Positions 8,746-40,832 of a DNA stretch of 43,373 nucleotides are shown here, piece by piece. Where the stretch lies: NCBI GenBank assembly GCA_034660415.1, contig JAYEJE010000084.1, forward strand, positions 1 through 43,373, given 5' to 3'. This stretch comes from Methanobacteriota archaeon (GTDB lineage: Archaea > Halobacteriota > Syntropharchaeia > Alkanophagales > Methanospirareceae). Each line of letters opens with the position of its first letter. The first letter of the stretch is position 1. The notes below the pieces were generated by a model. It saw nothing but the letters and a program-made list of their open reading frames with translations, searched no databases and was not told the DNA's origin. The position numbers were made by a program, and so were the translations under genes.

Positions 8746-9555
8746 TCACCTGTTCCTTCTATGCGCCATATAGGCAACTGCTAAAATGCCTGCAATTGTG
8801 AATACCACCTCAAATCCCGGCTCTTTCGGTGCTGGTGCTGACGCTGACGCTGGTTTTTTAACACCTACAAAAAGTTCCTGGTCAGGTTGCAGTAAAAACT
8901 TATCCCTCGTATCTGCCCATTTCGACTTGAATGTCTTCTTTTCCGCTGCCGTTGCTTCTGCGGGTACACTGAACTTCACCTTTTTCCGTAGTTCGAAGTA
9001 GCCTTCCGGGAACACTCCCTCTTTCACTGCGACCTCGTAACAGTCCCCAGTTGATTTTCGGCAGATGTCGAACCTGAAATTATCTCGAGTATTATCCTTT
9101 GCTATTTTCTTCAAGTTCGATTGGCTCAGGTCCATTACTTCAGTCCCGTCAGGCAGAATTATCTTATACTCGCCTTCCGTTTTCGTTTCTATCCCCGCCC
9201 CTGTCCCCGTAATGTATCGAAAACAATCCTTGGAACCAAGAGTAGCAAGCCTGCTGATTATCTGGATGTCATCTCTTGCGGGTATCTCCTCGCCCCATAT
9301 TTCCGATATTCCTAACTGAGATGCCCTGAATGCACAAGCTCCACATCCACAAATAGCTCCGTGATATTTCCCTACGTCTTCTATTGATATTTCAAGCAGC
9401 GTATCACCATCATAAATTGAAATGGGCGCTAGCTCGTATTCCGGTAGCGGTTTGGCACCTGGCATGTGTGCATCAACGGAAATAATCGCTGTAGATACTG
9501 CAAGCAAAACCAACGACATAACCACAACTGTTTTTATTTTATCTATTCTTTTCAT
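8746..9555 (-). CDS. Surface-anchored protein: signal peptide, recurrent Cys-containing domain X, PGF-CTERM anchor
   Basis: Signal peptide ends VDA-HMPG. Domain X motifs are KYHGAICGCGACAFRAS, IPARDDIQIIS and VFPEGYFELRKK. The C-terminus PGFEVVFTIAGILAVAYMAHRRNR is a canonical PGF-CTERM. Confidence 0.7.
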   Translation of the reverse strand: MKRIDKIKTVVVMSLVLLAVSTAIISVDAHMPGAKPLPEYELAPISIYDGDTLLEISIEDVGKYHGAICGCGACAFRASQLGISEIWGEEIPARDDIQIISRLATLGSKDCFRYITGTGAGIETKTEGEYKIILPDGTEVMDLSQSNLKKIAKDNTRDNFRFDICRKSTGDCYEVAVKEGVFPEGYFELRKKVKFSVPAEATAAEKKTFKSKWADTRDKFLLQPDQELFVGVKKPASASAPAPKEPGFEVVFTIAGILAVAYMAHRRNR

Positions 9556-10784: not shown

Positions 10785-12071
10785 TCACTTGCTCCTTTTA
10801 ACTACTATCCCCAGTGCTGCGAGCCCGGCAACGATTATTCCGAAGGCTATGGCACCACCGGTGGGAAATGGCTCTTTTTCTTCCTCTTCCGCCTCACTTA
10901 TCTTCGATAGGTATGTTGTTAGGTCGCTATGTGCGATATTGACTGCTTCAGTACCGTCTTTCAGCTTTAACGGCTTCTGCTCTGTGAGCACCGTTGCTAA
11001 GTCGGTAGAATGGATGTGAACCTCACTTGAAAATTCTTTGAGCTTCTTCATCTCCTCCAGCATCTCACTCCCTTTTTCTTTTACCTCTTCTATATCATCG
11101 GTCTTTTCTATCTCGTCCAGATACCCCCCGGTCCTGTATATAGAACCCATGAGCTTATGCGACAGGTCATGCAGCATCGCTGCCTCCACTTCGCCCTTAC
11201 CCATCTCCTCTGCTACTGGCACCATCGCGCCGTGTATCAACTCATGCATTTCGCCTATGCACACTGATGCCTCCTCCGATTTCTCACGGAGTGCTTCTAA
11301 TTTCCCTTTATCTCCACTTTCAGTAAGTTCGGCAGCGAGACAAAGCATAGTACCTTCATCCCCCACTTTGCCTACGATGAGCGCATCAAGATGGTGGGCA
11401 TAATTGTCGTGAAGTTCATTTGATAACCTCTTCCCTATGGATTCTGTAAGTGCTGACGACACTTTTTCTTCCATTTTCCCAAGCTGACTTTCTTCATACC
11501 ACTTCAGTGTCTCTCCTCTTGCCTTTTTGTTCCTCAGCTCGAAGTAGCCTGCCGGGAATATACCCGAGATTTCTTCCTCGGCTTTCCATACGTATTCCTC
11601 GCCGCTCCTCACGGCAACAAAAGTAAATTCAAAGTTCTCTGCCTTCTGGTTTTCCTCGCTCGTTCCTCCAGGTGCTTTAAGCTCGTATTTGCCCGGCTTA
11701 TCACTTGTCCATTCCGGTGGTGCTTCTCCCTCCGGCTGACCTATGATAACCTGAATGACCCGCTCAGCAGCCGGAGTTGGCAGTTTACTGATTATCTTTA
11801 TGTCACTTCGCCGCGGTGCTTCTCCTTCCCACAGGACATCTATAGCATCGCTTATCGCTCTGTATGCGAAATCCGCAGAAACGTCTATCTCTGCTGCTCC
11901 CCCTCCTGCTCCTGCTGCTCCTTCCACGTATTTCGGGCATTCTTCTATCGGCACCCAGCCTTCTGGTATATGCGCCTGCCCCGGAAACGCGAATGCACTG
12001 AGCAATACCGTTGCCAGTACTATTCCTATTACAGCAGTTTTGAGTTTTCTCCTGCTCTTTTCTCTTTCCAT
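10785..12071 (-). CDS. Surface-anchored protein, tandem paralog 2 of 9566-10780
   Basis: Same architecture as its neighbour. The signal peptide ends GQA-HIPEG. The central and C-terminal region is almost nucleotide-identical to the neighbour. Confidence 0.7.
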   Translation of the reverse strand: MEREKSRRKLKTAVIGIVLATVLLSAFAFPGQAHIPEGWVPIEECPKYVEGAAGAGGGAAEIDVSADFAYRAISDAIDVLWEGEAPRRSDIKIISKLPTPAAERVIQVIIGQPEGEAPPEWTSDKPGKYELKAPGGTSEENQKAENFEFTFVAVRSGEEYVWKAEEEISGIFPAGYFELRNKKARGETLKWYEESQLGKMEEKVSSALTESIGKRLSNELHDNYAHHLDALIVGKVGDEGTMLCLAAELTESGDKGKLEALREKSEEASVCIGEMHELIHGAMVPVAEEMGKGEVEAAMLHDLSHKLMGSIYRTGGYLDEIEKTDDIEEVKEKGSEMLEEMKKLKEFSSEVHIHSTDLATVLTEQKPLKLKDGTEAVNIAHSDLTTYLSKISEAEEEEKEPFPTGGAIAFGIIVAGLAALGIVVKRSK

Positions 12072-17394: not shown

Positions 17395-18012
17395 CTAAGC
17401 ATGTGTTATCAGCGGAAGCGCAACCAAAGTTCCGATGAAAATCTCGTCTTCAGGCAAGCTCAGTAATTTTTCCCTGACTTCCAGTTCCCATCCCTCATAT
17501 CTTTCTCGCTCTTCCTCTGTCGGTTTCCTTGGAATTTCATGCTCTACTATGCTCCCCAGCTCAAAATACCCGTCTGGAAACAGCTCTGGTATTACCTGTA
17601 CCCTATACGAAGTATTCGTGGATTTCCGAATAAAGGTAAACACATAATTCCCTGTCGTCAGATGTTTCGCATCTGTCCCCTCCGGCGGCTCAAGCACATA
17701 ATCTCCTATTGTTCCTTCTTGCCATGGTTCCAATTCTATCCCCAGCATATACTTGAAAGTTAGCTGCGAACCCTTGGTAGGGAGCGTGCTGATTATCTTA
17801 ATATCCTCTCTCGCTGGTATTTCTTTATCTTCATGCCACAGCTTTGAAAGAGCAAATTGTGTTGCCCTGAAACCACTCGCCACGCATACGCACGGTTTTC
17901 CATCCATCGGTTCATCGCCATGCATTTCTGCATGCAATTTCGCTATTACTTCTATTCTTATTTTTACCTGTGTTCCTCTTCCATCCATTATTATAGGTTT
18001 TAACCTCTTCAT
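17395..18012 (-). CDS. Cytoplasmic (no signal peptide) domain X protein
   Basis: GKPCVCVASGFRATQ, IPAREDIKIIS, YVFTFIRKSTN and LFPDGYFEL align with the domain in 8746-9555 and with the C-terminus of 23906-25954. Confidence 0.65.
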   Translation of the reverse strand: MKRLKPIIMDGRGTQVKIRIEVIAKLHAEMHGDEPMDGKPCVCVASGFRATQFALSKLWHEDKEIPAREDIKIISTLPTKGSQLTFKYMLGIELEPWQEGTIGDYVLEPPEGTDAKHLTTGNYVFTFIRKSTNTSYRVQVIPELFPDGYFELGSIVEHEIPRKPTEEERERYEGWELEVREKLLSLPEDEIFIGTLVALPLITHA

Positions 18013-23905: not shown

Positions 23906-25954
23906 TCAATTACTTTCCTCGAAAATACTGTCCACTGGCAGATACATCAACTTCTCCTTTAGCTCTCTCCAGAGCAACTTAAACGCTTTCTTCTCCTCTT
24001 TCGTTACATCGCCTTTTCCCATTTTCGCCAATTTGCACTTCGTCCTCAGTTCAAAGAATCGTTCCGGGAATATCTCCTCCTCCACCCGGAGCGTGATTGA
24101 ATCATTGGTGGACTTCCGAGTGAATGTGTAGCCGTAGTTATCTGCCGTAATATTTACTATGTCTGCTCCTTCGTCAATTGTGAGGTCTTCTGTTGAACCC
24201 AATATGTATTCAAAGGTCATCATGTGTCCGTCGGATGGATGTCCGGAGTTAATTTTCACGTCACCTCGATGTGGTGTTCCGTTCCACAATTCTTCTTCTG
24301 AAAATGCTCGCAAGGTTGACTTGAATGCAGATGCCACACAGGGGCATATCTCTACCACACCCTCACCGTGATATTTTCCGGCGTCCTCTATTGTTATCGT
24401 TAGCAGTTCTTCTCCGTCGTATATCTGTACTGATGGGTAACTGAGCTCCTTAGCCACCATGAGTTCGATCCATTCTGCCACATTCGAATGCGGCGTCAGC
24501 GCTCTCTCCCCTTTTTCCGGATATGCGTAACTAATGTTCTTCAGCAGCTTTGGTATTTTTCTACCCGTGAAGTACCCTTCACTGACCATTAGCGGAACCA
24601 CAATAGAGTGAGATGTCGCGGAAACATTCTCCACCACCGCTCTTACTAAGAGGTCTGAATGTAGCGTCTCATTTGGAAATACAAATGAGTAGCGTACATC
24701 ATTTATATTGAGTCCCATTCCGTACCTCAATTTCAGTTTCATCTGCTCTGCCAGCGACTTGGAACTGCTCACCCAACCTGCAAAATTGGATTCATTACCT
24801 GTTCCGTGTGCAACAAGTACGATGGTTTCATTGGCTGGATCTTCGCTTAACGCAGCCGCACGATCCACCAGAATATCCGCAATCGCCCAGTGGTCATCAA
24901 TAGCATTCGTAAGTACAATCTCCGTTTCTGTATCAACGGGAACGAGTTCTTCTTCCTCCGCTTCTCCTCCGCCGTGGTGCTGCTTTGCTGTTACTCCCAT
25001 TGCGCTTACGGTCTCGACTATCGGCATGTAGGAAACGCGGTATCGCCCTTCAAGAGATACGATAGAACGTTCTAGCTCTTTCCCTTCGACAAATACCTGC
25101 ATGCTCATCGTCGTCAGTTCCTCGCGCAGCCCAAGCACATACTCGATCTCGCCAATGTGCCCGCTGTGTGATGATATGAACAGCGGTACTGCGATTATCT
25201 TTGTAACGCCCGCTTCATCGAGCTTGCCCACTGCAATGTTTATCGTCTCGTTCGGCACAAACTCCAAGAAGCCGAGTTCTATTGGGTACGGCGAACTTAC
25301 ATTCGCCACTACTGATCGAAGAGGAGCACACCATGAATCGCTCGGACTGCCATGTCCTACCACCAGAATGCCTATTTGTTCGTACTCCTCAACAGGTGCC
25401 TCTTTGATCCGAGTGAACGTACCTTCCCATTCTGCAACCACAATACCGGTTGTATTTTTCGCTGTCCAGGTCTTTACCGTGGTATTATCATCAACAAAAG
25501 TCTCACTCTCCTCACAGGTAACATTCTCCAGGATACCTAACTCGGGAAGACCGTCCATATCATAAGAGCTACCATAGCCATTTGGCAGTAAATCATAATA
25601 CAAGGGTTCCTCGTCTCCCTCCTTAATCGCAAACTTCTCTTTGTCCGCGTCCCACCAAGCTTCCCCGGTCTCTGCTCCCTCTTCTCCGTCCATTACCACA
25701 ACAAAATCGGCAGTGGTCGGTCCGGTCAGGCTAACAGTTCTCGTACCGATAGTGGGCATGGCCTGTTCACCTATCGTCATTGTGCCATTGAAGCTCCAGT
25801 TGCCGGAAAGCCGCTCGAAGAGTTCCTCAGCCGTTATCTGCTCTGATAGGTTGCTATCTTCGGCATTTGCAACTCCCGTAGATAACGTAAGAACACCCAA
25901 TAATAAGATGCATGTTAGCACTACAACAGCGTTTTTTCTTTTCGTTTCATTCAT
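23906..25954 (-). CDS. Secreted multidomain protein: signal peptide, beta-rich N-domain, two CbiX-type class II chelatase domains, C-terminal domain X
   Basis: Signal peptide ends GVANA-ED. The CbiX motifs are ILVVGHGSPSDSW ... AVPLFISSHSGH and IVLVAHGTGNES ... VVPLMVSEGYF. The C-terminus carries KYHGEGVVEICPCVASAFKS, YTFTRKSTN and IFPERFFELR. Confidence 0.7.
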   Translation of the reverse strand: MNETKRKNAVVVLTCILLLGVLTLSTGVANAEDSNLSEQITAEELFERLSGNWSFNGTMTIGEQAMPTIGTRTVSLTGPTTADFVVVMDGEEGAETGEAWWDADKEKFAIKEGDEEPLYYDLLPNGYGSSYDMDGLPELGILENVTCEESETFVDDNTTVKTWTAKNTTGIVVAEWEGTFTRIKEAPVEEYEQIGILVVGHGSPSDSWCAPLRSVVANVSSPYPIELGFLEFVPNETINIAVGKLDEAGVTKIIAVPLFISSHSGHIGEIEYVLGLREELTTMSMQVFVEGKELERSIVSLEGRYRVSYMPIVETVSAMGVTAKQHHGGGEAEEEELVPVDTETEIVLTNAIDDHWAIADILVDRAAALSEDPANETIVLVAHGTGNESNFAGWVSSSKSLAEQMKLKLRYGMGLNINDVRYSFVFPNETLHSDLLVRAVVENVSATSHSIVVPLMVSEGYFTGRKIPKLLKNISYAYPEKGERALTPHSNVAEWIELMVAKELSYPSVQIYDGEELLTITIEDAGKYHGEGVVEICPCVASAFKSTLRAFSEEELWNGTPHRGDVKINSGHPSDGHMMTFEYILGSTEDLTIDEGADIVNITADNYGYTFTRKSTNDSITLRVEEEIFPERFFELRTKCKLAKMGKGDVTKEEKKAFKLLWRELKEKLMYLPVDSIFEESN

Positions 25955-26443: not shown

Positions 26444-26908
26444 TTATTCAACTGCGTTCTTTCGCTTATCCGCTTCGCACGGATGCATTCCGGTCTCACA
26501 GAACGTTTTGAAGTGCTGAAGCCACTGTGGATAGTCGGGTGCGGACTTCACAAACCGCACAAAATTCTTCAACTGCTCTACCGTTTTCGTCTCCAATTCG
26601 TGCTCCATTATGCATGCATCTTTATTCGCTATTTTCTCGGGCACCTGTAGTATTTCCAGAAGTGCCCTTAGAGTATCATGCCGGTCCTTTACCAAGCTTC
26701 CTATCTCTCTCCCTTTTTGTGTTAATGTCACACCGTCGTATTTCCGATACACAACGTAACCGTTATCGTTCAGCTTCTTTAGCATCTCCACAACGCTTGA
26801 GGGCTGAATAGCTAAAGCCAGTGCTATATCCTTTACCCTTGTATATCCCTTCTCTTCTGAGATGTTCAGAATCGCTTCGAGATAGTCTTCCGCTTTTCTA
26901 CTTAGCAT
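26444..26908 (-). CDS. DtxR/MntR-family metal-dependent transcriptional regulator (no SH3 domain)
   Basis: The N-terminus AEDYLEAILNISEEKGYTRVKDIALALAIQPSSVVEMLKKL and the dimerisation helix with HELE follow the DtxR-family pattern. Confidence 0.8.
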   Translation of the reverse strand: MLSRKAEDYLEAILNISEEKGYTRVKDIALALAIQPSSVVEMLKKLNDNGYVVYRKYDGVTLTQKGREIGSLVKDRHDTLRALLEILQVPEKIANKDACIMEHELETKTVEQLKNFVRFVKSAPDYPQWLQHFKTFCETGMHPCEADKRKNAVE

Positions 26909-30659: not shown

Positions 30660-31055
30660 ATTCCACAGCTAACCCGCACTTGGTTCCAGTGTCGGGAGGG
30701 AGAGTACGTGCATGCTGACGCATATCGCAATAATGATCAGAATAACCTTGCCAATGAAAAACGGAACCACAACAACGGCTGAATACCCGATCGTTATGCT
30801 TAAAAACGCAATCGTCAGAATCTTTGTCTTCATCGGAATCCCCTTTCCCTCATGCCAGTTTTTGATATATTCACCAAACCAGCGGTTTGTGATGAGCCAG
30901 TGGTACCATCTCTCCGAACTCCTAGCATAGCATGCGAGAGCAAGCAGGAGAAAGGGCGTGGTCGGTAGAAGCGGCAGAACTATCCCCATGCACCCTATTA
31001 GGAGGGATGCTGTGCCTGCAATTCTCAAGAGCATGCATGTTGCCTGCTTCGATCG
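30660..31055. repeat. ~395-bp direct repeat, copy 1 (DUF454 gene body plus 3' flank)
   Basis: Aligns base for base with 40297-40692 at a constant offset of 9637, roughly 85 percent identical by eye. Confidence 0.8.
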
Positions 31056-31064
31056 CCCATACAT
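30669..31064 (-). CDS. YbaN/DUF454-family inner-membrane protein
   Basis: GIVLPLLPTTPFLLLALACYARSSERWYHWL matches my recollection of the DUF454 motif. 131 aa. Confidence 0.6.
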   Translation of the reverse strand: MYGRSKQATCMLLRIAGTASLLIGCMGIVLPLLPTTPFLLLALACYARSSERWYHWLITNRWFGEYIKNWHEGKGIPMKTKILTIAFLSITIGYSAVVVVPFFIGKVILIIIAICVSMHVLSLPTLEPSAG

Positions 31065-31224
31065 AGTTTTATCAGTGTTTATTATGTGTACAAATAATCA
31101 CCCCCATATTTTTTGGAAAAAAAACTCGCTATGTATCTTAGTTCCTGATCGAAGTCCCGTTCCACATTGTAAAACATCCGCTTTAACACCTTCGATATAT
31201 GCCATGCCGGCATTGTCTAAAAAA

Positions 31225-31832: not shown

Positions 31833-33131
31833 TTATTCCCTCTCTTCATCCATGGTATTTATATGCCGGGTAACTGATCTACTGGCGATTACGTCTTCAA
31901 AATCCGCAGTAGTTATTGATAGCTTGCCTACCTTCTTCCCCCTCCTTTTTGCGTCCTTTGTTTTCTTTAGCCAGACCTCGGTGCAGATATTCGTGAGATC
32001 CCTACCAGTGCAGTTCTCAGGTGTCAGGTCAACGATGCGATCGAAATCTATGTCTTCGTCCAGGTTGTATTTGCTAGTCTTTATCTCGTAAATAGTACGC
32101 TTTGCCTGCCTGTCCGGAACAGGGACTTCTATCTGTTTGCTCCGTGATAGAATTGCATCGTCAACCCTGTCATCACGATTGCTTGTAAATATTGTGATGA
32201 TTGATTCACCACGCCGGTTGAAGCCATCGAGCTCTGCACACAACTGTAACATGGCAGTACGCACTTCATCACCCGCGTCTGTTTCTCCGCCATCAGTTCT
32301 ACGCTTCAGTGCGAGCCCGTCTATCTCGTCCATAAATACGATGCACGGCGCTTTTTTCCGTGCCAACTCATAAAGGTCGCGTATATTGGCTGATGTCGTC
32401 CCGAGCCATTTTTCTACGAGCTCTGGCGCATTAACGCCGATAAAAGGCACACCTGCTTCGTTAGCTACGGCTTCTGCCAGCATAGTTTTTCCCGTACCCG
32501 GAGGACCGACTAATAATAGGGCATTTTGGATTTCTACACCCGCTTCTGCCATTTCTTTGCTTATCTCCGGGTCGAGCTGAAGCTCTGTATGCTCCCGGAG
32601 TTTTTCCTTCACAGCCTCCAACCCTCCTATAGCCTCATATGTCACGTTTGAACACTCATTGACCACAAATTTCTCTGCTTTGTATTTGTAAGAATCCAGA
32701 AGTTCTAAAATATCGTAACTTTGCGGATTAAGGTCTACTTCCTTGCCAGGAACTATTACCTCTTTTGGAAATCGATGAGGTCTCGGAATGACGTGAATTA
32801 TTCTATTACCGCCATCAATCGAGACTAACACTTTGTCTCTTTTTTTCTCATATTTTACTACATAACCTCTGACCGCCGGAGTAGATTTAAGCTCTTTATG
32901 AATCTTGTATAGCTCATCAGTCGCCGTTTTTCGTTCTTGTTCCACCCTTCTATGCCCCAATCGAAGTTTATAAATCGCCTGTTCATACTCTATTAATCGT
33001 TCTACCTGCTTTGAAATTACATGTTCTGCAATCTCCATTTCATCTGTATAACCTGGTCGCTTTTCTTCTTCGTACAGCTCATCCAACAATTCCTCTTTTC
33101 TATCGGTTCCTACAAAATTAGCGGTCGCCAT
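31833..33131 (-). CDS. PAN-like AAA+ ATPase (coiled coil, OB-like domain, AAA module)
   Basis: Walker A GPPGTGKT, Walker B IVFMDEID and SRH TSNRDDRVDDAILSR. The N-terminal coiled coil and the GYVVKY ... VIVPGKEVDLNP OB-like segment are arranged as in proteasome-activating nucleotidase. The ATG at 33131 follows GAGGTGA, and the listed GTG at 33143 lies inside that SD. Confidence 0.7.
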   Translation of the reverse strand: MATANFVGTDRKEELLDELYEEEKRPGYTDEMEIAEHVISKQVERLIEYEQAIYKLRLGHRRVEQERKTATDELYKIHKELKSTPAVRGYVVKYEKKRDKVLVSIDGGNRIIHVIPRPHRFPKEVIVPGKEVDLNPQSYDILELLDSYKYKAEKFVVNECSNVTYEAIGGLEAVKEKLREHTELQLDPEISKEMAEAGVEIQNALLLVGPPGTGKTMLAEAVANEAGVPFIGVNAPELVEKWLGTTSANIRDLYELARKKAPCIVFMDEIDGLALKRRTDGGETDAGDEVRTAMLQLCAELDGFNRRGESIITIFTSNRDDRVDDAILSRSKQIEVPVPDRQAKRTIYEIKTSKYNLDEDIDFDRIVDLTPENCTGRDLTNICTEVWLKKTKDAKRRGKKVGKLSITTADFEDVIASRSVTRHINTMDEERE

Positions 33132-33161
33132 GTAAAGACTCACCTCATATTATAATCCGAT

Positions 33162-33240
33162 GTTGTTAGGTATACAAATAGCACCCCCTAAAAATGTTCG
33201 GTTTTGTCTAAAAACTCGAAGAAAGTTATGCTTTTTGGCA
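33162..33240 (-). promoter_or_regulatory. Shared promoter/operator cassette, copy H
   Basis: TTAGG 33166, CCTAA 33187, TTCGG 33197, TCGAA 33216 and TTATG 33226, giving offsets 0/21/31/50/60. Confidence 0.7.
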
Positions 33241-33328
33241 TCAGCCTACGAGGAACTTTTTAAGAAGAGAACGTTTGTAGTATTTTTCATTTTTGTATCA
33301 CCCCCATCTTCTTTCTTTACTTCTTAAC

Positions 33329-34618
33329 CTATTGAGCATAAATTCTCTTTGCAATTTTAGAAGTCTTCTCTTCAAGACTCGCGAGTTCTCCTTTACCCTT
33401 ATATAAATATTCCATCGCCATCTCCGTACCTATAGTATTCGCCCAGAACATACCCTCAGAGGTGAGTTCGACCTCATTCTTCCCGAGTATCATTTCCCCT
33501 CTATCCACGGAAGTTTCTATCGTTTTGGCAAATGCCTCAAGAGGATCAAAACCCCACCTCCTCATTGGCTCTTCAATATCTACCCTTCCGTATTGAATTT
33601 GTGATACGCACCAGAGTACAGGAATAATATTTCTAGGCACGCTAAAAACGTTTCCCTGTTTGTTCTGGATGTATTTTTCACTTGTAGATTTATGATTTAT
33701 GAAACAATCAGCCAAAAAGCCCGTTGCCCCAGCGCCTAAACCGAGAATATTTCCCAAACTATTGAAATAGGTAGAATAGCGGAACTTGTCCCGCCCGTTT
33801 GAAAAATGATTGATATTTACGTGATTATAGCCTTCATCTTCCAGAAAACTCTTTGCGTTTTCAAAACTATTCATTGCCGTTCCGATTGGAGGCTGCTCGA
33901 ATTGTCTGGCTATTGCCGTTTTGGGCGCATATATCAAAGGATAAAGAGAGATTCCATCAACCCCTATTCCCACCGCTTTTTGCAAATCCACAATTACATC
34001 CCTCATCTCTTGTCCCGGCAGATCATACAAAATGTCTATTGTAAGAAGCGGAAACATCCCTCTCGCTCTATTTAATTTCTTAACGACTTCTTTACCGCCT
34101 CCTCTCCTTCCAAGCATTTTTCTTAAACCCAGATTGAACGTTTGAACCCCTACACTCAAACGATTAACACCTAATTCCAGAAGCAAGTTCATTTTATCTT
34201 CTGTAAGTTCGCTTGCTGTTGTTTCAACACTGATTTCTGCATCGTTATCTATCTTAAATGTATCCCTCAGACCAGCAAATAACAACTTAAGTTCTTCTGA
34301 GGATAGAGATGTTGGAGTACCTCCGCCTACATATATGGTTTGTATGGAGGAAAAGTAATCGCTCCACTCGCTCGCTCCGTCCAGAATCGCGTCCACGTAT
34401 TTCAGCGTATTCTCTGTGGGTAACTCTTTTGTAAGAATGCAAAAAGTGCATCTACCAGCGCAGAAGGGTATATGTATATATAATGCACCCTTTTCACCGC
34501 CCTTTTCCCTTAATTTGTCGAACAGCCATTCAATATCCCTCTTTTTAAGATAAGGAAAGAATGGGAACAGTGTATCATGGTGTGATTTTAGCCATTTCCT
34601 TGTGTTATTATTATCCAT
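33329..34618 (-). CDS. HemN-family (class C) radical SAM enzyme. HemW, HemZ or ChuW/HutW-like function cannot be told apart by eye.
   Basis: CxxxCxxC is present as HIPFCAGRCTFC. YVGGGTPT and LSVGVQTF are HemN-family motifs. 429 aa. Confidence 0.75.
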   Translation of the reverse strand: MDNNNTRKWLKSHHDTLFPFFPYLKKRDIEWLFDKLREKGGEKGALYIHIPFCAGRCTFCILTKELPTENTLKYVDAILDGASEWSDYFSSIQTIYVGGGTPTSLSSEELKLLFAGLRDTFKIDNDAEISVETTASELTEDKMNLLLELGVNRLSVGVQTFNLGLRKMLGRRGGGKEVVKKLNRARGMFPLLTIDILYDLPGQEMRDVIVDLQKAVGIGVDGISLYPLIYAPKTAIARQFEQPPIGTAMNSFENAKSFLEDEGYNHVNINHFSNGRDKFRYSTYFNSLGNILGLGAGATGFLADCFINHKSTSEKYIQNKQGNVFSVPRNIIPVLWCVSQIQYGRVDIEEPMRRWGFDPLEAFAKTIETSVDRGEMILGKNEVELTSEGMFWANTIGTEMAMEYLYKGKGELASLEEKTSKIAKRIYAQ

Positions 34619-34631
34619 ATGTCTTCCAATT

Positions 34632-34829
34632 TTATTTAGAACTATTCTTTGATCTTATTGCTCGTAATCCAAAATCCAACTTCGACATAAAAAACATACT
34701 CGCTTCTGTATTGCTGGCGTTGAAACGATCAATATTAAATTCTTGGATCACCGGTGCCATAAGCGTCAAACTCCGCATCGCTACAAACATCAAAACCGCA
34801 TAGATTGTTACTTCTTTATTGTGACTCAT
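34632..34829 (-). CDS. Hypothetical 65-aa ORF between the Cys-rich ORF and the radical SAM gene
   Basis: Only ORF-level support. There is no SD-like sequence and no recognisable motif. Confidence 0.25.
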   Translation of the reverse strand: MSHNKEVTIYAVLMFVAMRSLTLMAPVIQEFNIDRFNASNTEASMFFMSKLDFGLRAIRSKNSSK

Positions 34830-34888
34830 TTTTCAATTGACAAGAAAAGAAAGGACCGGGCATTTAAAATTTTATTGCATTTTTGAAA

Positions 34889-35062
34889 TTATTTATTCCC
34901 TCCTTCATCCAACCCCTCTCCTTTCTCCCGCTTATCATTCTCCTTATTGCATCTGCACGCTTTACCCCGGCAGCACCCACCACCACAATTGCAGCTACTA
35001 TCGCACAGCGCAAGTGCAAGCAAAAACGCCATCTTCTCAACTATCTTTTTGCCTTCTTTCAT
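34889..35062 (-). CDS. Unlisted 57-aa Cys-rich small protein (below the ORF-track cutoff): MKEGKKIVEKMAFLLALALCDSSCNCGGGCCRGKACRCNKENDKREKGEGLDEGGNK
   Basis: Translated by hand. The ATG at 35062 lies 21 bp from the first half-site of cassette I, which matches the geometry at copies A, B and F. A basic and hydrophobic N-terminus ends LALC, followed by 7 Cys in 19 residues and an acidic tail. Confidence 0.55.
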   Translation of the reverse strand: MKEGKKIVEKMAFLLALALCDSSCNCGGGCCRGKACRCNKENDKREKGEGLDEGGNK

Positions 35063-35070
35063 AATGTACT

Positions 35071-35172
35071 AGTGTTAGGTTGTTAGGTATACAAATAGCA
35101 TCCCCTAAAAGAGTTCGGTTCTGTCTAAAAAGCCGAATAAAGTTGGGTTTTTGTAAAAAACCGATGATTTTG
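35071..35172 (-). promoter_or_regulatory. Shared promoter/operator cassette, copy I
   Basis: TTAGG at 35083 (with an extra TTAGG at 35075) and CCTAA at 35104, followed by TTCGGTTCTGTCTAAAAAGCCGAA, AGTTGGGTTTTT and AACCGATGATTTT. Confidence 0.7.
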
Positions 35173-35223
35173 TATTTTATCCTAAATTCTAATTAATTTC
35201 GGGTTTCTTCTTTTTTCTAATCT

Positions 35224-35253
35224 TGTTAGGGTTCATTATTTATGTCCCTAACA
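35224..35253 (+). promoter_or_regulatory. Core-only copy of the operator/TATA module, driving flavodoxin on the plus strand
   Basis: TTAGGG-TTCATTATTTATGT-CCCTAA has the same 21-bp spacing. It lies 46 nt upstream of the flavodoxin ATG, which has an AGGAGG SD. Confidence 0.7.
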
Positions 35254-35296
35254 GCTATACTAATCCCTACGTACAAAAAAAGGAGGATAGCTAAAA

Positions 35297-35740
35297 ATGG
35301 TAAAGGTAGTTTTGATATATGGTTCGACCACGGGAAACACGGAAGCATTGTCGGAACATGTAGCAGCAGGACTTGAGAGGGGGATGGCAGAAGTCACGGT
35401 AAAGGACGTGGCAAAAGCAAGTGTTGACGAACTCGCGAATTATGATGCGATCGTATTTGGGTGCTCCACCTGGGGCGAAGGCGATTTGCAGGATGATTTC
35501 TTTGATTTCCACGAAGCGATGGACGGGATCTCGCTGAAAGGTAAGAAGGCGGCGGTTTTTGGTCCAGGAGATAGTGAAGACTATCAGGATTCGTTCTGCA
35601 CGGCAGTGGACATCCTCAAGGAATCGCTAGAGGGTCATGGTGCCGAAATCGTTGCTGAAAGCTTCAAGATTGACGGAGAGGTTGAGCCTGCATTTGAAGA
35701 CGCCGAAGCTTGGGGATTGAAGGTTGCCAAAGCACTTTAG
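35297..35740 (+). CDS. Short-chain flavodoxin
   Basis: VLIYGSTTGNTE FMN-phosphate loop and the STWGEGDLQDD motif. 147 aa. Confidence 0.85.
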   Translation: MVKVVLIYGSTTGNTEALSEHVAAGLERGMAEVTVKDVAKASVDELANYDAIVFGCSTWGEGDLQDDFFDFHEAMDGISLKGKKAAVFGPGDSEDYQDSFCTAVDILKESLEGHGAEIVAESFKIDGEVEPAFEDAEAWGLKVAKAL

Positions 35741-35797
35741 CTTTGCTTTAATCCCGGTTTTATTTTTTCTACAAGAAGCAAAGAAAGAAAAGAAGAT

Positions 35798-36187
35798 ATG
35801 GACGTATTTACACACCACCTTCTGGAATATAAGAAAGGATTAAGAACCCTCGTCCTTCATACGACAAAAGTATCGAACAGAGATGCAATTAAAAAAAAAC
35901 TGGAGAGGGCAATGATAGCTCATTATATTCAAACGGTAAACCGAACGAAGATAAATGTCTTCTTCGGACATTCGATCTGCATAGATGTAATCAAACAGAT
36001 GAATTTTACATCATTGTCAAATCTGACCGATGATGAGGACTTTATTCTTGGTACGATGCTGGGCTATGATAGATTAAAGCAATGTGAACGTTATCTTAAA
36101 AGGAAGCGGAGTAGCAATAACTTGCCGAGCTGTAAACTTAAGACCCTATCCATCCCCAAGACCGAAGCGATTAGGGCTGTTGGTTGA
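35798..36187 (+). CDS. DUF2023-like protein, a family I recall as often adjacent to flavodoxin genes
   Basis: VFTHHLLEYKKGLRTLVLHT ... INVFFG ... DFILGTMLGYDRLKQCERYL resembles the DUF2023 pattern from memory. Confidence 0.45.
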   Translation: MDVFTHHLLEYKKGLRTLVLHTTKVSNRDAIKKKLERAMIAHYIQTVNRTKINVFFGHSICIDVIKQMNFTSLSNLTDDEDFILGTMLGYDRLKQCERYLKRKRSSNNLPSCKLKTLSIPKTEAIRAVG

Positions 36188-36239
36188 TTGGATATAAAGT
36201 AGGGAAAGTCATAATTACTGAACTTTTTACATACATGCA

Positions 36240-37022
36240 TCATTCAGAAGAGTTAGCTGGTCTTATAGGAACGATATAAGGCCTTCCACCGTGATTGTTC
36301 ACTTCCACTTCAACATCATAAACGTGCTTAATCTTTTCAGGCGTCAGGACCGAGGCAGCGTCTCCGGCATCAAAAATCTCGCCTCCGTTCATCATGACTA
36401 CTCGATCAGCATATCTCGAAGCAAGATTCAGGTCGTGGATAGCCATTACAGCCGAGATTTCCTTCTGCCTTACCAAATTCCGTATTATTTCCATCACCTC
36501 AAGCTGATGCTTTATATCCAGGTTTGAGGTAGGCTCATCGAGGAGGAGAACATCTGCTTCCTGAGCAAGTGCTCTTGCAATGGCCACCTTCTGCTGCTGA
36601 CCTCCACTGAGTTCGTTGAAGTCCCGCATAGCAAAACGTTCGATTCCCAACAGTTTCAATATCTCCTCAACCTTTTCTATGTCCTGTTCATCACTGTGCC
36701 ATCTAAGATGCGGACGTCTACCCATGAGAACGGTATCGAAGACAGTAGCAGGAAAAACGTGTGCAGAACCCTGCGGCACATAGCCCATATGCCTGGCGAT
36801 CTCAATCCGGCTCATCTTTTTTATCTCTCTTTCGTCTAGCAGTATGCTTCCATTAGCGGGCTTTAGAATCCGGTCTATGCATCTGAGCAGCGTAGATTTT
36901 CCCGCTCCGTTTGGACCCACTACGCCTAACATCTCCGATTCCGAAAGCTCTATACAGATATCCTTCAGTACATGCACACTTGCGTAATTAAATTCCAGTT
37001 CTTTTATTTTTAGTTTCGCCAT
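36240..37022 (-). CDS. ABC transporter ATPase of the iron-siderophore/heme/cobalamin type (FepC/HmuV/BtuD-like)
   Basis: Walker A GPNGAGKST, signature LSGGQQQ and Walker B LLLDEPTS. It is paired with a FecCD permease. Confidence 0.8.
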   Translation of the reverse strand: MAKLKIKELEFNYASVHVLKDICIELSESEMLGVVGPNGAGKSTLLRCIDRILKPANGSILLDEREIKKMSRIEIARHMGYVPQGSAHVFPATVFDTVLMGRRPHLRWHSDEQDIEKVEEILKLLGIERFAMRDFNELSGGQQQKVAIARALAQEADVLLLDEPTSNLDIKHQLEVMEIIRNLVRQKEISAVMAIHDLNLASRYADRVVMMNGGEIFDAGDAASVLTPEKIKHVYDVEVEVNNHGGRPYIVPIRPANSSE

Positions 37023-37030
37023 TTTTTAGT

Positions 37031-38101
37031 TCACCAGTATCCCCCCCTCCCTCTCAATATCAGGTAAATGAAGAGTGGAACGCCCAGATATGCGGTCATT
37101 ATACCCACAGGTAGAATAACCGGTGCCATGATTGTCCTTGCCGCAGTGTCTGCGGCGACAAGTAATATCGCTCCAACTAGACCAGATGTCGGAATCAGAA
37201 ATCTATTATCGCCGCCTATAACCATGCGACATATATGTGGGGCGACCAAACCAACGAATCCGATTGTGCCGGTGAAGCATACGATACCGGCAACTAAGAG
37301 TGATGCAAGCACCATCGTAATGATTCTAGTGCGCTCTACCTGGACACCCAAGCTTTTAGCTGTTTCGTCTCCTGCACCCAGCACGTTAAGATCCCACGAT
37401 TTCAGTATAAGCAAAGGAACACAGCATACTAGTACGACAGATACGAGTGACAGCTTTGACCATGAGGCCCTTCCAAGGGAGCCGACCATCCAGAATATCG
37501 CTCCTTTCACCGCTTCCGCTTCGGCAAAATATTGTAGCGTCATTGTCATCGCAGTGAAGAGATACATCATTGCAATGCCTGCCAGGATCATGCTCTCGGG
37601 TGTCGCACCCCTACGACTTGAAAGACCGAGGATAATGAACGAAACCACTAATGCGAAGGCGAATGCATTTCCTATTACCAGATATTGCCCACCGACGAAG
37701 CCGGCACCGGCAAGTATGCCAAGAGAAGCGCCAAATCCTGCGCCTGATGCAATACCAAGCGTATAAGGACTCGCAAGCGGATTTCTCAGCACTCCCTGCA
37801 TCACACATCCTGCAACACCGAGTCCAAAGCCCGCAGCAACGCCCATTAAGATTCGAGGCAGTCTCAACTTCCATACGCATATCTCGGCAAGTCTGCTCGA
37901 CTCGAAGTAGTTGGGTAAGAACCGATGAAGAAATGCGGAATACGCATCCCAGATCGATACATTTGCCGAACCGAGAGATGCCGCTAAGCCCGCGAGAATA
38001 AATAGTAGTGGGATGAGGATAAGAATAAAGGTTACTTTCCTGCCGATGAACTTCTGATATTGTTCCTTTATCGTACTACTCTTCCCCGGTACTGTTGCCA
38101 T
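37031..38101 (-). CDS. FecCD-family permease (BtuC/HmuU-like)
   Basis: 356-aa polytopic protein with RLPRILMGVAAGFGLGVAGCVMQGVLRNPLASPYTLGI, which is typical of FecCD. Confidence 0.8.
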   Translation of the reverse strand: MATVPGKSSTIKEQYQKFIGRKVTFILILIPLLFILAGLAASLGSANVSIWDAYSAFLHRFLPNYFESSRLAEICVWKLRLPRILMGVAAGFGLGVAGCVMQGVLRNPLASPYTLGIASGAGFGASLGILAGAGFVGGQYLVIGNAFAFALVVSFIILGLSSRRGATPESMILAGIAMMYLFTAMTMTLQYFAEAEAVKGAIFWMVGSLGRASWSKLSLVSVVLVCCVPLLILKSWDLNVLGAGDETAKSLGVQVERTRIITMVLASLLVAGIVCFTGTIGFVGLVAPHICRMVIGGDNRFLIPTSGLVGAILLVAADTAARTIMAPVILPVGIMTAYLGVPLFIYLILRGRGGYW

Positions 38102-38140
38102 TATCTCTTCTACCCAAAAATCTTTATCTAAAAAGTAAAA

Positions 38141-38232
38141 GTATTAGGTTAACAAAAAACATGCTCTAAAAATACTCGGTTTTGGATAAAAACTGAATAT
38201 AGTTAGGTTTTTGAGAAAAAGCCGATGATTTG
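38141..38232 (-). promoter_or_regulatory. Shared promoter/operator cassette, copy J (upstream of the ABC importer)
   Basis: TTAGG at 38144 and TCTAA at 38165 (offset 21), followed by CTCGGTTTTGGATAAAAACTGAAT, AGTTAGGTTTTT and AGCCGATGATTT. Confidence 0.65.
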
Positions 38233-40296: not shown

Positions 40297-40692
40297 ATTC
40301 CACAGCTACCCCGCACTTGGTTCCAGTGTCGGGAGAACGAGTACGTGCATGCTGACGCATATCGCAATAATTATCAGAATAACCTTGACGATAAAATACG
40401 GAACCACGACAACGGCTGAATATCCTATCGTCAGGCTTAAAAACGCAATCATCAGAATCTTGGTCTTCATCGGAATCCCCTTTCCCTCGTGCCAGTTTTT
40501 TATATATTCTCCAAACCAGCGGTTTGTGATGAGCCAGCGGTACCATCTCTCCGAGCTTCGGGCGTAGCAGCCGAGAGCGAGCAGGAGAAAGGGCGTGGTA
40601 GGCAGGATCGGCAGAACTATCCCCACGCATCCAATTATCAGGAATAACGTGCCCACGATTCGCAATAGCAACCCTGCCGCTGTGTTTGATCG
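40297..40692. repeat. ~395-bp direct repeat, copy 2
   Basis: See 30660-31055. Confidence 0.8.
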
Positions 40693-40806
40693 TTTATGTC
40701 CTGTCCCCTCCCTTTCATTGGTATAACCCGGCTGCGTTGCATCTCCGTACCGCTCGTTTATCAATTCCCCTTTTCTATCGGTTCCTACAAAATCAGAGAA
40801 CGCCAT
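40306..40806 (-). CDS. Chimeric YbaN/DUF454 paralog whose first ~30 codons and SD region copy the 5' end of the PAN-like AAA gene
   Basis: MAFSDFVGTDRKGELINERYGDATQPGYTNE compares with MATANFVGTDRKEELLDELYEEEKRPGYTDE. At nucleotide level 40720-40822 matches 33045-33146. The rest is collinear with 30669-31064. Confidence 0.6.
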   Translation of the reverse strand: MAFSDFVGTDRKGELINERYGDATQPGYTNEREGTGHKRSNTAAGLLLRIVGTLFLIIGCVGIVLPILPTTPFLLLALGCYARSSERWYRWLITNRWFGEYIKNWHEGKGIPMKTKILMIAFLSLTIGYSAVVVVPYFIVKVILIIIAICVSMHVLVLPTLEPSAG

Positions 40807-40832
40807 GTAAAGACACTCCTCCTATTAACGTC

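What the first reader, a model, noticed from the sequence alone, without database searches (positions are those of the whole stretch)
33329..38101. HemN/ChuW-like radical SAM, divergent flavodoxin and heme/siderophore-type ABC importer: a candidate anaerobic tetrapyrrole-iron salvage module
Seen directly: a HemN-family radical SAM gene carries CxxxCxxC and GGGTPT motifs. It appears to be served by cassette I, with no recognisable cassette or terminator between. A flavodoxin gene diverges from the same intergenic region under a core copy of the operator. A FecCD/FepC importer lies next door under cassette J.

Established knowledge: ChuW/HutW are HemN-like class C radical SAM methyltransferases that open heme anaerobically to release iron. 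Their reported reductant is flavodoxin, and they are encoded with heme ABC importers under iron repression.

Inference: this may be an archaeal counterpart. The FAD oxidoreductase with DUF1641 could act as a downstream reductase and the secreted CbiX fusion as the extracellular binder. A HemW heme chaperone or a peptide-modifying enzyme are equally possible from sequence alone.
Basis: partly seen in the sequence, partly recalled or inferred. Interest (0 to 1): 0.65.

Follow-up and report, generated by a model that had tools for sequence, protein, structure and literature searches.

The report
Archaeal heme-opening radical SAM candidate
An uncultured methane-oxidising archaeon (ANME-1) carries, inside its iron-starvation gene island, a radical SAM enzyme most closely related to the bacterial enzymes that break heme open without oxygen to free its iron; if it does the same, it would be the first such enzyme known in archaea.

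Summary
Window 33329-34618(-) encodes an intact 429-aa HemN-fold radical SAM protein with CxxxCxxC and GGGTPT. A short-chain flavodoxin diverges from the shared intergenic region. A FecCD permease/ATPase pair lies next door. All three units sit behind a palindromic operator, TTAGG-N14-16-CCTAA, found 10 times in the window against 0.16 expected.

The protein is not HemN or HemW. It belongs to an ANME-1-specific clade that is sister to the anaerobilin-synthase lineages: ChuW/HutW plus an HmuW-like clade. It shares their diagnostic motifs, including the N-terminal K-S-H-H-D found in characterised Fusobacterium HmuW. It fails NCBI's ChuW/HutW equivalog cut-off (216 vs 400 bits), but so do the HmuW-like proteins.

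Across ANME-1 lineages and a 36%-identical sister lineage, one link recurs but is not universal: the iron regulon (feoAB strings, ExbB-like uptake strings, the operator directly upstream). The flavodoxin and ABC pair do not recur in that way. Flavodoxin+DUF2023 is a generic iron-sparing operon, and the ABC substrate is undetermined.

Most likely function: iron-starvation-induced anaerobic opening of heme or a related Fe-tetrapyrrole (confidence about 0.5). It is a new archaeal variant of a known kind.

The parts
33329..34618 (-). 429-aa class C (HemN-fold) radical SAM protein, in an ANME-1-specific clade related to the anaerobilin synthases ChuW/HutW/HmuW
   Evidence: CxxxCxxC and GGGTPT are present. 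The best NCBIfam hit is TIGR04107 HutW, 216.5 bits, covering positions 33-414 of 419. The fold matches 1OLT at TM 0.70.
34632..34829 (-). Remnant (first ~45 codons) of an efflux-type MFS transporter gene; the rest is deleted
   Evidence: 73% identical to residues 2-45 of the intact 383-aa MFS gene that directly precedes the orthologue in L005.
34889..35062 (-). 57-aa Cys-rich small ORF, first reading frame after the operator; coding status unresolved
   Evidence: 17 protein clusters at 75% identity or more with frame-preserving indels and invariant C24, C26, C31. Substitution pattern is near neutral. Found only in close relatives.
35053..35171 (-). Promoter/operator cassette serving the minus-strand unit (Cys-rich ORF, MFS remnant, radical SAM gene); core palindrome at 35083-35108
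35226..35251 (+). Second copy of the operator palindrome, in the flavodoxin promoter region
   Evidence: sequence.
35297..35740 (+). Short-chain flavodoxin
   Evidence: TIGR01753, 134.5 bits, above the cut-off of 123.
35798..36187 (+). DUF2023 protein, co-oriented with the flavodoxin
   Evidence: PF09633, 130.6 bits. The flavodoxin+DUF2023 pair also occurs in L001/L002 and L005. The same pair is induced by iron starvation in Bacteroidetes (PMC10434189).
36240..37022 (-). ABC transporter ATPase (FepC/BtuD/HmuV type), substrate undetermined
   Evidence: corrinoid 254 bits (cut-off 537), heme PRK13548 245.5 (cut-off 261).
37031..38101 (-). FecCD-family permease, substrate undetermined
   Evidence: The orthologue in L001 carries PF01032.
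38121..38221 (-). Promoter/operator cassette copy upstream of the permease (core has one mismatch to the palindrome)
33143..33243 (-). Cassette copy upstream of the next unit (AAA ATPase 31833-33143, 97-aa ORF, DUF454 30669-31064)
26444..26908 (-). DtxR/MntR-family metalloregulator, the candidate repressor for the palindrome
   Evidence: MntR PRK03902, 126.6 bits (cut-off 138). A 61%-identical orthologue in L005 has Fe_dep_repress domains.

Best explanation
The 429-aa protein is an archaeal, ANME-1-specific member of the anaerobilin-synthase branch of class C radical SAM methyltransferases (relatives: ChuW, HutW, HmuW).

Inferred mechanism, by analogy:
1. A [4Fe-4S] cluster on C53/C57/C60 is reduced by reduced flavodoxin, which is plausibly the one encoded 680 nt away.
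2. The cluster cleaves a first SAM to the 5'-deoxyadenosyl radical.
3. That radical abstracts H from the methyl group of a second SAM.
4. The resulting methylene radical adds to a meso carbon of heme (or a related iron tetrapyrrole).
5. The macrocycle opens and Fe2+ is released.

Expression is inferred to be switched on by iron starvation. The control would be a DtxR/MntR-family repressor acting on the palindrome TTAGG-N14-16-CCTAA, which overlaps the core promoter.

In this genome the unit is eroded. The MFS gene that precedes the enzyme in a sister lineage is truncated, and the class I methyltransferase that follows it elsewhere is lost.

Shown here: the fold, the motifs, the phylogenetic position, the operator enrichment, and a recurrent (not universal) linkage to iron-uptake genes.
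Inferred: the substrate, the ring opening, the reductant, and the regulation.
For: Phylogeny
- NJ tree of 120 HemN-like proteins, 100 bootstraps. The ANME-1 clade plus the P0044-47 sister group has 100% support.
- That group joins [ChuW/HutW (100%) + HmuW-like] at 75%. E. coli HemW falls outside this group; E. coli HemN was the outgroup.

HMM scores
- NCBIfam best hit is HutW/ChuW, full length, 216.5 bits, compared with HemW 159 and HemN 130.
- HmuW-like proteins score 228-282 on the same model. True ChuW and HutW score 567 and 547.
- Against clade HMMs built here, the window protein scores 276 (HmuW-like), 232 (HemW side), 221 (ChuW/HutW) and 190 (PRK08629-like). E. coli ChuW itself scores 256 vs 225 on the first two.

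Motifs
- The N-terminal K-S-H-H-D is invariant in the archaeal clade. H13 is present in 97% of the HmuW-like clade and absent from the HemW side.
- The cloning primer for F. nucleatum hmuW (FN0771) encodes MFKIRYKSHHDV (supplement of PMC10404700). HmuW is a demonstrated anaerobilin synthase.
- The aligned His is the proposed heme ligand H31 of HutW.
- H271 (N-H-F/W) is shared only with ChuW/HutW.
- R166, Y281 and the C-terminal G-x-F-W-x-N are shared with both heme-degrading clades, not with HemW.

Context
- HmuW-like loci: 7/8 have FecCD and/or ABC genes within 6 kb, mostly just upstream, and 4/8 a flavodoxin-type gene. The 8th (L008) has FeoB and a short flavodoxin instead.
- ChuW/HutW loci carry ChuTUV, ChuX and ChuA.
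- HemW-side loci: 0/45 have a FecCD permease or flavodoxin hit; 4/45 have only a weak ABC-ATPase hit. PRK08629-like loci: 0/9.

Iron linkage of the archaeal gene
- The operator lies 22 nt upstream of the gene's true start in L100.
- The operator heads same-strand strings ending in the gene in the window, L005, L111, L092 and L112.
- feoAB is adjacent in L003, L100, L005 and the 36%-identical L112.
Against: - The protein fails the curated ChuW/HutW equivalog cut-off (216 vs 400 bits).
- It lies outside both characterised lineages, as an outgroup, so phylogenetic bracketing does not strictly apply. The joining node has only 75% NJ support.
- The reference set was chosen by similarity to the query. 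It lacks NosN, TbtI, YtkT, Jaw5, MenK/MqnK, HemZ and STM4012. STM4012 is the second-best NCBIfam hit at 184 bits.
- Two residues invariant in ChuW/HutW differ: the Arg at the T134 column and the Asp at the S224 column.
- No ChuX, ChuY or HmuF homologue was found in the window. The flavodoxin is an ordinary short-chain type.
- In three ANME-1 lineages the gene sits in non-iron contexts without the operator (L096, L098, L109).
- In two lineages it is flanked by an efflux-type MFS gene and/or a class I methyltransferase (MFS in L005; MT in L001/L002 and L005). That arrangement also fits a small biosynthetic cassette.
- No heme importer could be identified.
- In L091 the gene carries an internal deletion, so it is dispensable in at least one strain.
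Confidence: 0.5

Rival explanations
1. [quoted passage not shown] Candidates are another metallo-tetrapyrrole (Fe-coproporphyrin or siroheme from the archaeal heme pathway, F430, a corrinoid) or a small molecule. Together with the efflux-type MFS transporter and the class I methyltransferase that flank it in sister lineages, it would make and export an iron-starvation metabolite rather than degrade heme.
For: - MFS->rSAM->methyltransferase in L005 and rSAM->methyltransferase in L001/L002/L090.
- The MFS protein resembles drug/siderophore exporters, though only weakly.
- The clade is ANME-1-specific, with a gap from 58% to 36% identity to the next relatives.
- It lacks two ChuW/HutW-invariant residues.
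- It scores below the equivalog cut-off.
- The enzyme that makes the ANME-1 cofactor methylthio-F430 is still unidentified (PMC10702137).
Against: - The MFS and methyltransferase genes are lost or truncated in the window while the rSAM stays intact. They are also absent from most other contexts.
- No other biosynthetic genes are nearby.
- Every clade-specific motif it shares is shared with the heme-degrading clades.
- ChuW/HutW already accept metal-free porphyrins, so a tetrapyrrole substrate remains the simplest reading.
- Iron-repressor control is unexpected for F430 tailoring.
Confidence: 0.25
2. It is a heme-binding chaperone or trafficking protein of the HemW kind. It would deliver heme to apo-cytochromes when iron is scarce, without opening the ring.
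For: - The HemW HMM gives substantial scores: TIGR00539 159 bits and 232 bits on the HemW-side HMM built here.
- HemW is needed for growth under iron limitation in Moraxella catarrhalis (PMC13495026).
- ANME-1 are reported to make many multiheme cytochromes (own knowledge, not checked here).
- The HemW-type protein of Enterococcus faecalis has itself been linked to heme turnover (PMC12077173), so the boundary between the two functions is blurred.
Against: - It scores below the HemW cut-off (159 vs 205.4 bits).
- The HemW signature C-x-H-N-x-x-Y-W is replaced by D-K-F-R-Y-S-T-Y-F. The His column is Tyr, as in ChuW, HutW and HmuW.
- It carries the N-terminal extension with K-S-H-H-D that HemW proteins lack.
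- The tree separates it from the HemW side.
- None of the 45 HemW-side genes sampled has a FecCD permease or flavodoxin hit nearby; 4 have only a weak ABC-ATPase hit.
Confidence: 0.15
3. It is the housekeeping oxygen-independent coproporphyrinogen III dehydrogenase (HemN/CpdH), as databases annotate it.
For: Source annotations of the orthologues read 'oxygen-independent coproporphyrinogen-3 oxidase'. HemN is the only full-length structural match.
Against: - The HemN HMM gives 130 bits against a cut-off of 325.
- In the tree E. coli HemN (used as the outgroup) sits on a long branch apart from all other sequences.
- Established knowledge, not tested here: archaea make heme through the siroheme-dependent Ahb pathway, which has no coproporphyrinogen III step.
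- Iron-starvation induction of a heme-biosynthetic step would be paradoxical.
Confidence: 0.02

Closest known systems
HmuW of Fusobacterium nucleatum (anaerobilin synthase) and the HmuW-like clade in Campylobacter, Treponema, Firmicutes and Anaerolineae
   Same: - Best-scoring clade profile, 276 bits.
- The N-terminal K-S-H-H-D motif is identical to that of FN0771.
- Same length, about 405-430 aa.
- FecCD/ABC and flavodoxin genes are neighbours.
- Both fall below the TIGR04107 cut-off.
   Different: - About 30% identity.
- The ANME-1 clade branches outside this clade.
- The neighbour is a plain short-chain flavodoxin, not a heme-binding HmuF (Flavodoxin_3 with helical cap).
- No binding-protein gene.
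- K271 of the HmuW-like clade is His here.
- Archaeal host, and a DtxR-type operator instead of Fur.
ChuW (E. coli O157:H7) / HutW (Vibrio), NCBIfam TIGR04107
   Same: - Best NCBIfam hit, aligned end to end.
- Shares the N-H-[FW] motif, R-[DE]-[RK]-x-x-Y, G-x-F-W-x-N and the SAM-binding residues.
- Iron-repressed expression is predicted.
- Flavodoxin is the ChuW reductant.
   Different: - 216 vs 547-567 bits, with a cut-off of 400.
- Lacks the invariant Arg and Asp of that clade.
- No ChuX/HutX, ChuY/HutZ or TonB-dependent receptor genes nearby.
HemW heme chaperone (TIGR00539)
   Same: HemN fold, radical SAM core, tetrapyrrole-binding family.
   Different: Lacks the HNxxYW motif, has an N-terminal extension, scores below the cut-off, and falls in a separate clade.
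HemN/CpdH, PDB 1OLT
   Same: The only full-length structural match, TM 0.70. The residues around both SAM sites align.
   Different: 22% identity, 130 bits against a cut-off of 325, and a different clade.
Flavodoxin-DUF2023 iron-starvation operon of Bacteroidetes
   Same: The same two-gene pair sits behind the iron operator here and in L001 and L005. In Bacteroidetes it is induced 159- to 598-fold without iron.
   Different: Archaeal host. In L005 the flavodoxin ORF is cut short at 67 aa.

Membership tests
Radical SAM superfamily | CxxxCxxC cluster motif and the radical SAM core fold | tested here: met
   C53/C57/C60. PF04055 76.5 bits, cut-off 29.5. Fold match.
HemN-like / class C radical SAM methyltransferase fold | Radical SAM domain plus the HemN-type C-terminal domain; GGGTPT and the residues lining two SAM sites | tested here: met
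   Full-length match to 1OLT, TM 0.70 over 419 columns. phmmer hits are HemN and NocN. GGGTPT at 98-103. Caveat: Pfam HemN_C (PF06969) was not detected.
ChuW/HutW anaerobilin synthase (NCBIfam TIGR04107, equivalog) | Whole-protein score at or above the curated cut-off of 400 bits | tested here: not met
   216.5 bits. E. coli ChuW scores 567 and Vibrio HutW 547. HmuW-like proteins also fail, at 228-282.
ChuW/HutW anaerobilin synthase | Placement inside the ChuW/HutW clade | tested here: not met
   It is sister to [ChuW/HutW + HmuW-like], not inside either clade.
Anaerobilin synthases in the broad sense (ChuW, HutW, HmuW) | Clade-specific sequence motifs: N-terminal His motif, Y in place of the HemW His, R166 column, C-terminal G-x-F-W-x-N | tested here: met
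   K-S-H-H-D is also encoded at the N-terminus of FN0771.
Anaerobilin synthases in the broad sense | Residues invariant in ChuW/HutW (Arg at the T134 column, Asp at the S224 column) | tested here: not met
   Thr and Ser in the ANME-1 clade. The HmuW-like clade also has Ser/Ser at these columns.
Anaerobilin synthases in the broad sense | Encoded with heme-type ABC uptake genes and a flavodoxin-type partner, under iron repression | tested here: inconclusive
   Met in the window and L001 (FecCD/ABC, flavodoxin, operator). In other ANME-1 lineages the neighbours are feoAB, ExbB-type strings or unrelated genes. The transporter's substrate is unknown.
Anaerobilin synthases in the broad sense | SAM-dependent ring-opening methylation of heme with release of iron | not testable with these tools
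   Needs an anaerobic enzyme assay.
HemW heme chaperone (TIGR00539) | Score at or above 205.4 bits, and the C-x-H-N-x-x-Y-W motif | tested here: not met
   159.4 bits. The motif is replaced by DKFRYSTYF. The motif definition comes from PMC13495026 and PMC10114718.
HemN/CpdH coproporphyrinogen dehydrogenase (TIGR00538) | Score at or above 324.95 bits | tested here: not met
   129.6 bits.
DtxR/MntR-type iron regulon | Over-represented palindromic operator at promoters, and a cognate regulator gene | tested here: met
   10 copies against 0.16 expected. Regulator at 26444-26908. Actual binding was not tested.

The most novel reading that the evidence does not exclude
The enzyme is not a heme degrader. 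It would be the core of a minimal iron-starvation cassette, seen intact in locus L005 as efflux MFS -> class C radical SAM -> class I methyltransferase. That cassette would tailor and export a tetrapyrrole-derived or other small molecule, such as an archaeal metallophore. Alternatively, it would act on an ANME-1-specific cofactor such as F430, whose methylthio-F430 synthase is still unknown.
Probability: 0.1. Interest if true: 0.8.

Novelty: new variant of a known kind. Interest (0 to 1): 0.5.

Why it matters
In the papers found and read here, anaerobic radical-SAM heme degradation is described only in bacteria, mostly host-associated ones. None of the listed papers from four searches of the held library, nor the two ANME comparative-genomics papers opened, mentions a ChuW-type enzyme, HemN or heme in archaea or ANME.

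ANME-1 are uncultured archaea that control marine methane flux. From my own knowledge, not tested here, they invest heavily in iron: Fe-S enzymes and multiheme cytochromes.

An iron-starvation-induced heme-opening enzyme would give them a way to recycle or scavenge heme iron in sulfidic sediments, where free iron is scarce. It would also extend this chemistry to a third, archaeal lineage with a different regulator and different partners.

The hypothesis is directly testable with a single recombinant protein. The operator palindrome additionally defines a candidate iron regulon for an organism that cannot be grown.

Tried and rejected
- The genome-contig scan with the clade alignment used patterns that were too generic. 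79 of 80 loci were bacterial HemN-like genes and only one was ANME-1. These loci were re-used as phylogenetic and context references.
- The metagenome scan gave only 6 short loci.
- The sigma-70 promoter and terminator scans are not informative for an archaeon.
- The paper describing the ChuW catalytic Asp (PMC7189753) is not held. The published R311 numbering did not map onto the RefSeq ChuW sequence. Neither residue could therefore be tested.
- RiPP idea (the Cys-rich ORF as substrate): rejected. The ORF occurs only in near relatives and no other maturation genes are present. Its coding status stays open: indels preserve the frame, but substitutions look near neutral.
- Methylthio-F430 synthase idea: kept only as a low-probability reading, because the gene is under iron control.
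- The class I methyltransferase next to the orthologues has no specific family. Its best hit is CpaM, 48 bits against a cut-off of 180.
- Structure prediction adds only fold-level confirmation. Mean pLDDT is 72, and it is low at residues 19-41 and 299-327.

Full report
**What is there.** The window is a piece of an ANME-1 (Methanophagales) genome. The closest relatives of the target protein, at 58-93% identity, all come from ANME-1 MAGs and metagenomes. Most of the window is an island of metal-uptake genes: several feoA/feoB sets, a ZinT fusion, a secreted CbiX fusion and a DtxR/MntR-family regulator.

The genes named in the finding are at the stated coordinates:
- a 429-aa radical SAM protein, 33329-34618(-);
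- a short-chain flavodoxin, 35297-35740(+), above the TIGR01753 cut-off;
- a FecCD permease, 37031-38101(-), with its ATPase, 36240-37022(-).

**The 'cassettes' are real.** An approximately 100-nt repeat occurs 11-12 times, always just upstream of a gene start. Its core is the palindrome TTAGG-N14-16-CCTAA. It lies between a TATA-like T-rich stretch and the start codon, ending about 20 nt before the ATG. It occurs 10 times in the window against 0.16 expected by chance. One copy (35083-35108) faces the minus-strand unit that ends in the radical SAM gene. A second (35226-35251) sits in the flavodoxin promoter. A one-mismatch copy precedes the permease. A DtxR/MntR-family regulator at 26444-26908 is the obvious candidate binder. 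Binding itself is an inference.

- A 57-aa Cys-rich ORF (34889-35062) lies between the cassette and the enzyme. It starts 21 nt after the operator.
- A 65-aa ORF (34632-34829) follows it. This is the N-terminal stump of an efflux-type MFS transporter. The transporter is intact (383 aa) and immediately upstream of the orthologue in a 60%-identical ANME-1 lineage, L005.
- The flavodoxin is followed by a DUF2023 gene.
- No substrate-binding protein accompanies the ABC pair.
- In close relatives a class I methyltransferase follows the enzyme (L001/L002, L090, and also L005). Only a 22-residue trace of it remains in the window.
- In one strain (L091) the radical SAM gene itself carries a large internal deletion.

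The locus is therefore an eroded version of a fuller unit.

**What the enzyme is.** The fold is HemN-like over its whole length: the AlphaFold model against 1OLT gives TM 0.70 over 419 columns. The cluster cysteines, GGGTPT and the residues around both SAM sites align with HemN.

It is neither HemN nor HemW by the curated models. HemN gives 130 bits against a cut-off of 325, and HemW gives 159 against 205. The best, end-to-end match is the ChuW/HutW model at 216.5 bits, below that model's cut-off of 400.

I built a reference set from three sources: E. coli HemN, HemW and ChuW taken from annotated genomes; 80 HemN-like loci from GTDB species genomes; and database homologues.

In an NJ tree of 120 sequences with 100 bootstraps:
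- the ANME-1 clade plus a 36%-identical archaeal sister group has 100% support;
- it joins, at 75%, a group made of the ChuW/HutW clade (100%) and a second clade from Campylobacter, Treponema, Firmicutes and Anaerolineae;
- the HemW-type sequences fall outside this group, and E. coli HemN, used as the outgroup, sits apart on a long branch.

**The second clade is HmuW-like.**
- 7 of 8 of its genomic loci have FecCD and/or ABC genes within 6 kb, mostly just upstream, and 4 of 8 have a flavodoxin-type gene. Two further database members sit directly behind FecCD-ABC-binding-protein genes. The 8th locus, L008, has FeoB and a short flavodoxin instead.
- The taxa and synteny match those described for homologues of Fusobacterium nucleatum HmuW, a biochemically demonstrated anaerobilin synthase (PMC10404700).
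- These proteins also score only 228-282 bits on the ChuW/HutW model. The curated cut-off therefore excludes at least one functionally validated lineage.
- The label rests on taxa, synteny and the primer-encoded N-terminus. It does not rest on the full HmuW sequence, which I did not have.

With clade HMMs built here, the window protein scores 276 bits on the HmuW-like profile, 232 on the HemW-side profile, 221 on ChuW/HutW and 190 on a PRK08629-like clade. E. coli ChuW, a true heme degrader, scores 256 and 225 on the first two. The ANME-1 protein therefore fits the HmuW-like profile about as well as ChuW does.

**Motifs.**
- The archaeal clade has an invariant N-terminal W-x-K-[ST]-H-H. In the HmuW-like clade the corresponding columns are K in 87%, H in 97% and H in 87%. 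In ChuW/HutW the first His is present in 72%. The whole segment is absent from HemW-type proteins.
- The published cloning primer for F. nucleatum hmuW encodes MFKIRYKSHHDV. The characterised enzyme therefore carries exactly the K-S-H-H-D of the ANME-1 protein (residues 11-15).
- The aligned His is the one proposed as a heme ligand in HutW (H31; PMC10114669).
- The HemW signature H-N-x-x-Y-W is replaced. Its His column is Tyr (Y281), as in both heme-degrading clades.
- H271 (N-H-F/W) is shared only with ChuW/HutW. R166 and the C-terminal G-x-F-W-x-N are shared with both heme-degrading clades.
- Against membership: two residues invariant in ChuW/HutW are Thr and Ser here (Arg at the T134 column, Asp at the S224 column). 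The HmuW-like clade also lacks them.

**Context across lineages.** The flavodoxin/ABC neighbourhood is not conserved. Linkage to iron uptake recurs in most, but not all, of the lineages sampled.

| Locus (identity to the window protein) | Arrangement |
|---|---|
| L100 (69%) | Operator ends 22 nt before the gene's true ATG; feoAAB follows |
| L005 (60%) | Three palindromes between flavodoxin-DUF2023 and MFS->rSAM->MT; feoB and a DtxR gene nearby |
| L003 (73%) | Gene is followed by an operator and three feoA genes plus feoB |
| L111, L092 (75-76%) | Gene ends a same-strand string of ExbB-like, DUF2149, NosD/beta-helix and DUF2162 genes headed by the operator |
| L112 (36%, sister group) | feoA-feoA-feoB-MJ0565-feoA->rSAM, with a related palindrome at the head |
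| L096, L098, L109 | Unrelated neighbours, no operator |

**The neighbours.**
- The flavodoxin-DUF2023 pair is a known iron-starvation operon in Bacteroidetes, induced up to 598-fold (PMC10434189). Here it is best read as the general ferredoxin-sparing response. It is also a plausible reductant: ChuW and HmuW are reduced by flavodoxins.
- The ABC pair is equally close to corrinoid, heme and ferric-citrate systems. Calling it a heme importer is not justified.
- Nothing beyond shared regulation links the FAD oxidoreductase/DUF1641 pair or the secreted CbiX fusion to the enzyme.

**Most likely function and rivals.**
- Best reading, about 0.5: an iron-starvation-induced, flavodoxin-reduced enzyme that opens heme, or a closely related iron tetrapyrrole, to recover iron. 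The heme could come from the cell's own cytochromes as easily as from outside, which would explain the lack of a dedicated importer.
- Rival, 0.25: a class C methyltransferase with another substrate, possibly forming a small make-and-export cassette with the MFS and methyltransferase.
- Rival, 0.15: a HemW-like heme chaperone.
- Rival, 0.02: a true HemN.

**Novelty.** Four library searches combining ChuW/HutW/anaerobilin, methylthio-F430 or iron-uptake terms with archaea/ANME listed no paper that describes such an enzyme in archaea. Two ANME comparative-genomics papers contain none of the heme-, HemN- or iron-related terms I searched them for. I rate it a new archaeal variant of a known kind. 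It is a distinct clade with a different regulator and different partners, and it is unproven biochemically.

Noticed in passing
window 34889-35062 (-): A 57-aa Cys-rich ORF (MKEGKKIVEKMAFLLALALCDSSCNCGGGCCRGKACRCNK...) starts 21 nt after the iron operator. It has 17 database clusters, all 75% identical or more to the query (those named are Methanophagales), with frame-preserving indels and invariant C24, C26, C31. Substitutions look near neutral. It could be a metallothionein-like or lipobox-like small protein, or a non-coding leader.
   Followed up: partly
window 34632-34829; L091 477-776; window 31112-31177: The locus shows gene decay. The MFS gene is truncated to a 65-codon stump. In strain L091 the radical SAM gene has an internal deletion that fuses its N- and C-termini. 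Only a 22-residue trace is left of the class I methyltransferase that follows the enzyme in L001/L002/L005.
   Followed up: partly
L013 1661-3649; L027 14454-14798; window 30669-31064 and 40306-40806: In a Spirochaetales genome an HmuW-like radical SAM protein is fused to a C-terminal DUF454 (YbaN-like) membrane domain. A HutW locus in Endozoicomonas has a DUF454 gene 3 kb away. The window has two DUF454 genes in the iron island. DUF454 is reported as induced by iron restriction in Avibacterium (PMC7970244). This suggests a functional link between DUF454 and anaerobic heme handling.
   Followed up: partly
window 33020-33143 vs 40696-40815; L001 8452-8550: The first ~40 residues of the PAN-like AAA ATPase (MATANFVGTDRKEELL...PGYTDE) recur as the N-terminus of the second DUF454 protein and of the L001 DUF454 protein. 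This is a shared N-terminal module of unknown role.
   Followed up: no
window 23906-25954; 8746-9555; 9566-10780; 10785-12071; 17395-18012: There is a family of secreted or PGF-CTERM-anchored proteins sharing an FmdE-like Cys-containing domain (PF02663 detected in 17395-18012). One of them is fused to two CbiX chelatase-like domains. All lie in the iron island. A surface-exposed chelatase fold recalls the proposed extracellular dechelatases of some bacteria (own knowledge, not tested).
   Followed up: partly
L111 1238-8329; L092 545-8281: In two ANME-1 lineages the enzyme is the last gene of an operator-headed string encoding ExbB/MotA-like, DUF2149, NosD/beta-helix and DUF2162 proteins. This may be an energised surface uptake system.
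   Followed up: no
L002 2767-3215 (also L001 3013-3461): A CTP-dependent riboflavin kinase gene (wHTH plus kinase domain), split into 75- and 73-codon ORFs, lies between the iron operator and the radical SAM gene in the closest relatives. It is absent from the window. FMN supply for flavodoxin would fit the regulon.
   Followed up: no
window, 10 sites listed; L005 6727-6812: The operator palindrome often occurs as two or three adjacent copies, with the 24- and 26-nt forms alternating. In L005 three copies fill the divergent flavodoxin / MFS-rSAM intergenic region.
   Followed up: partly
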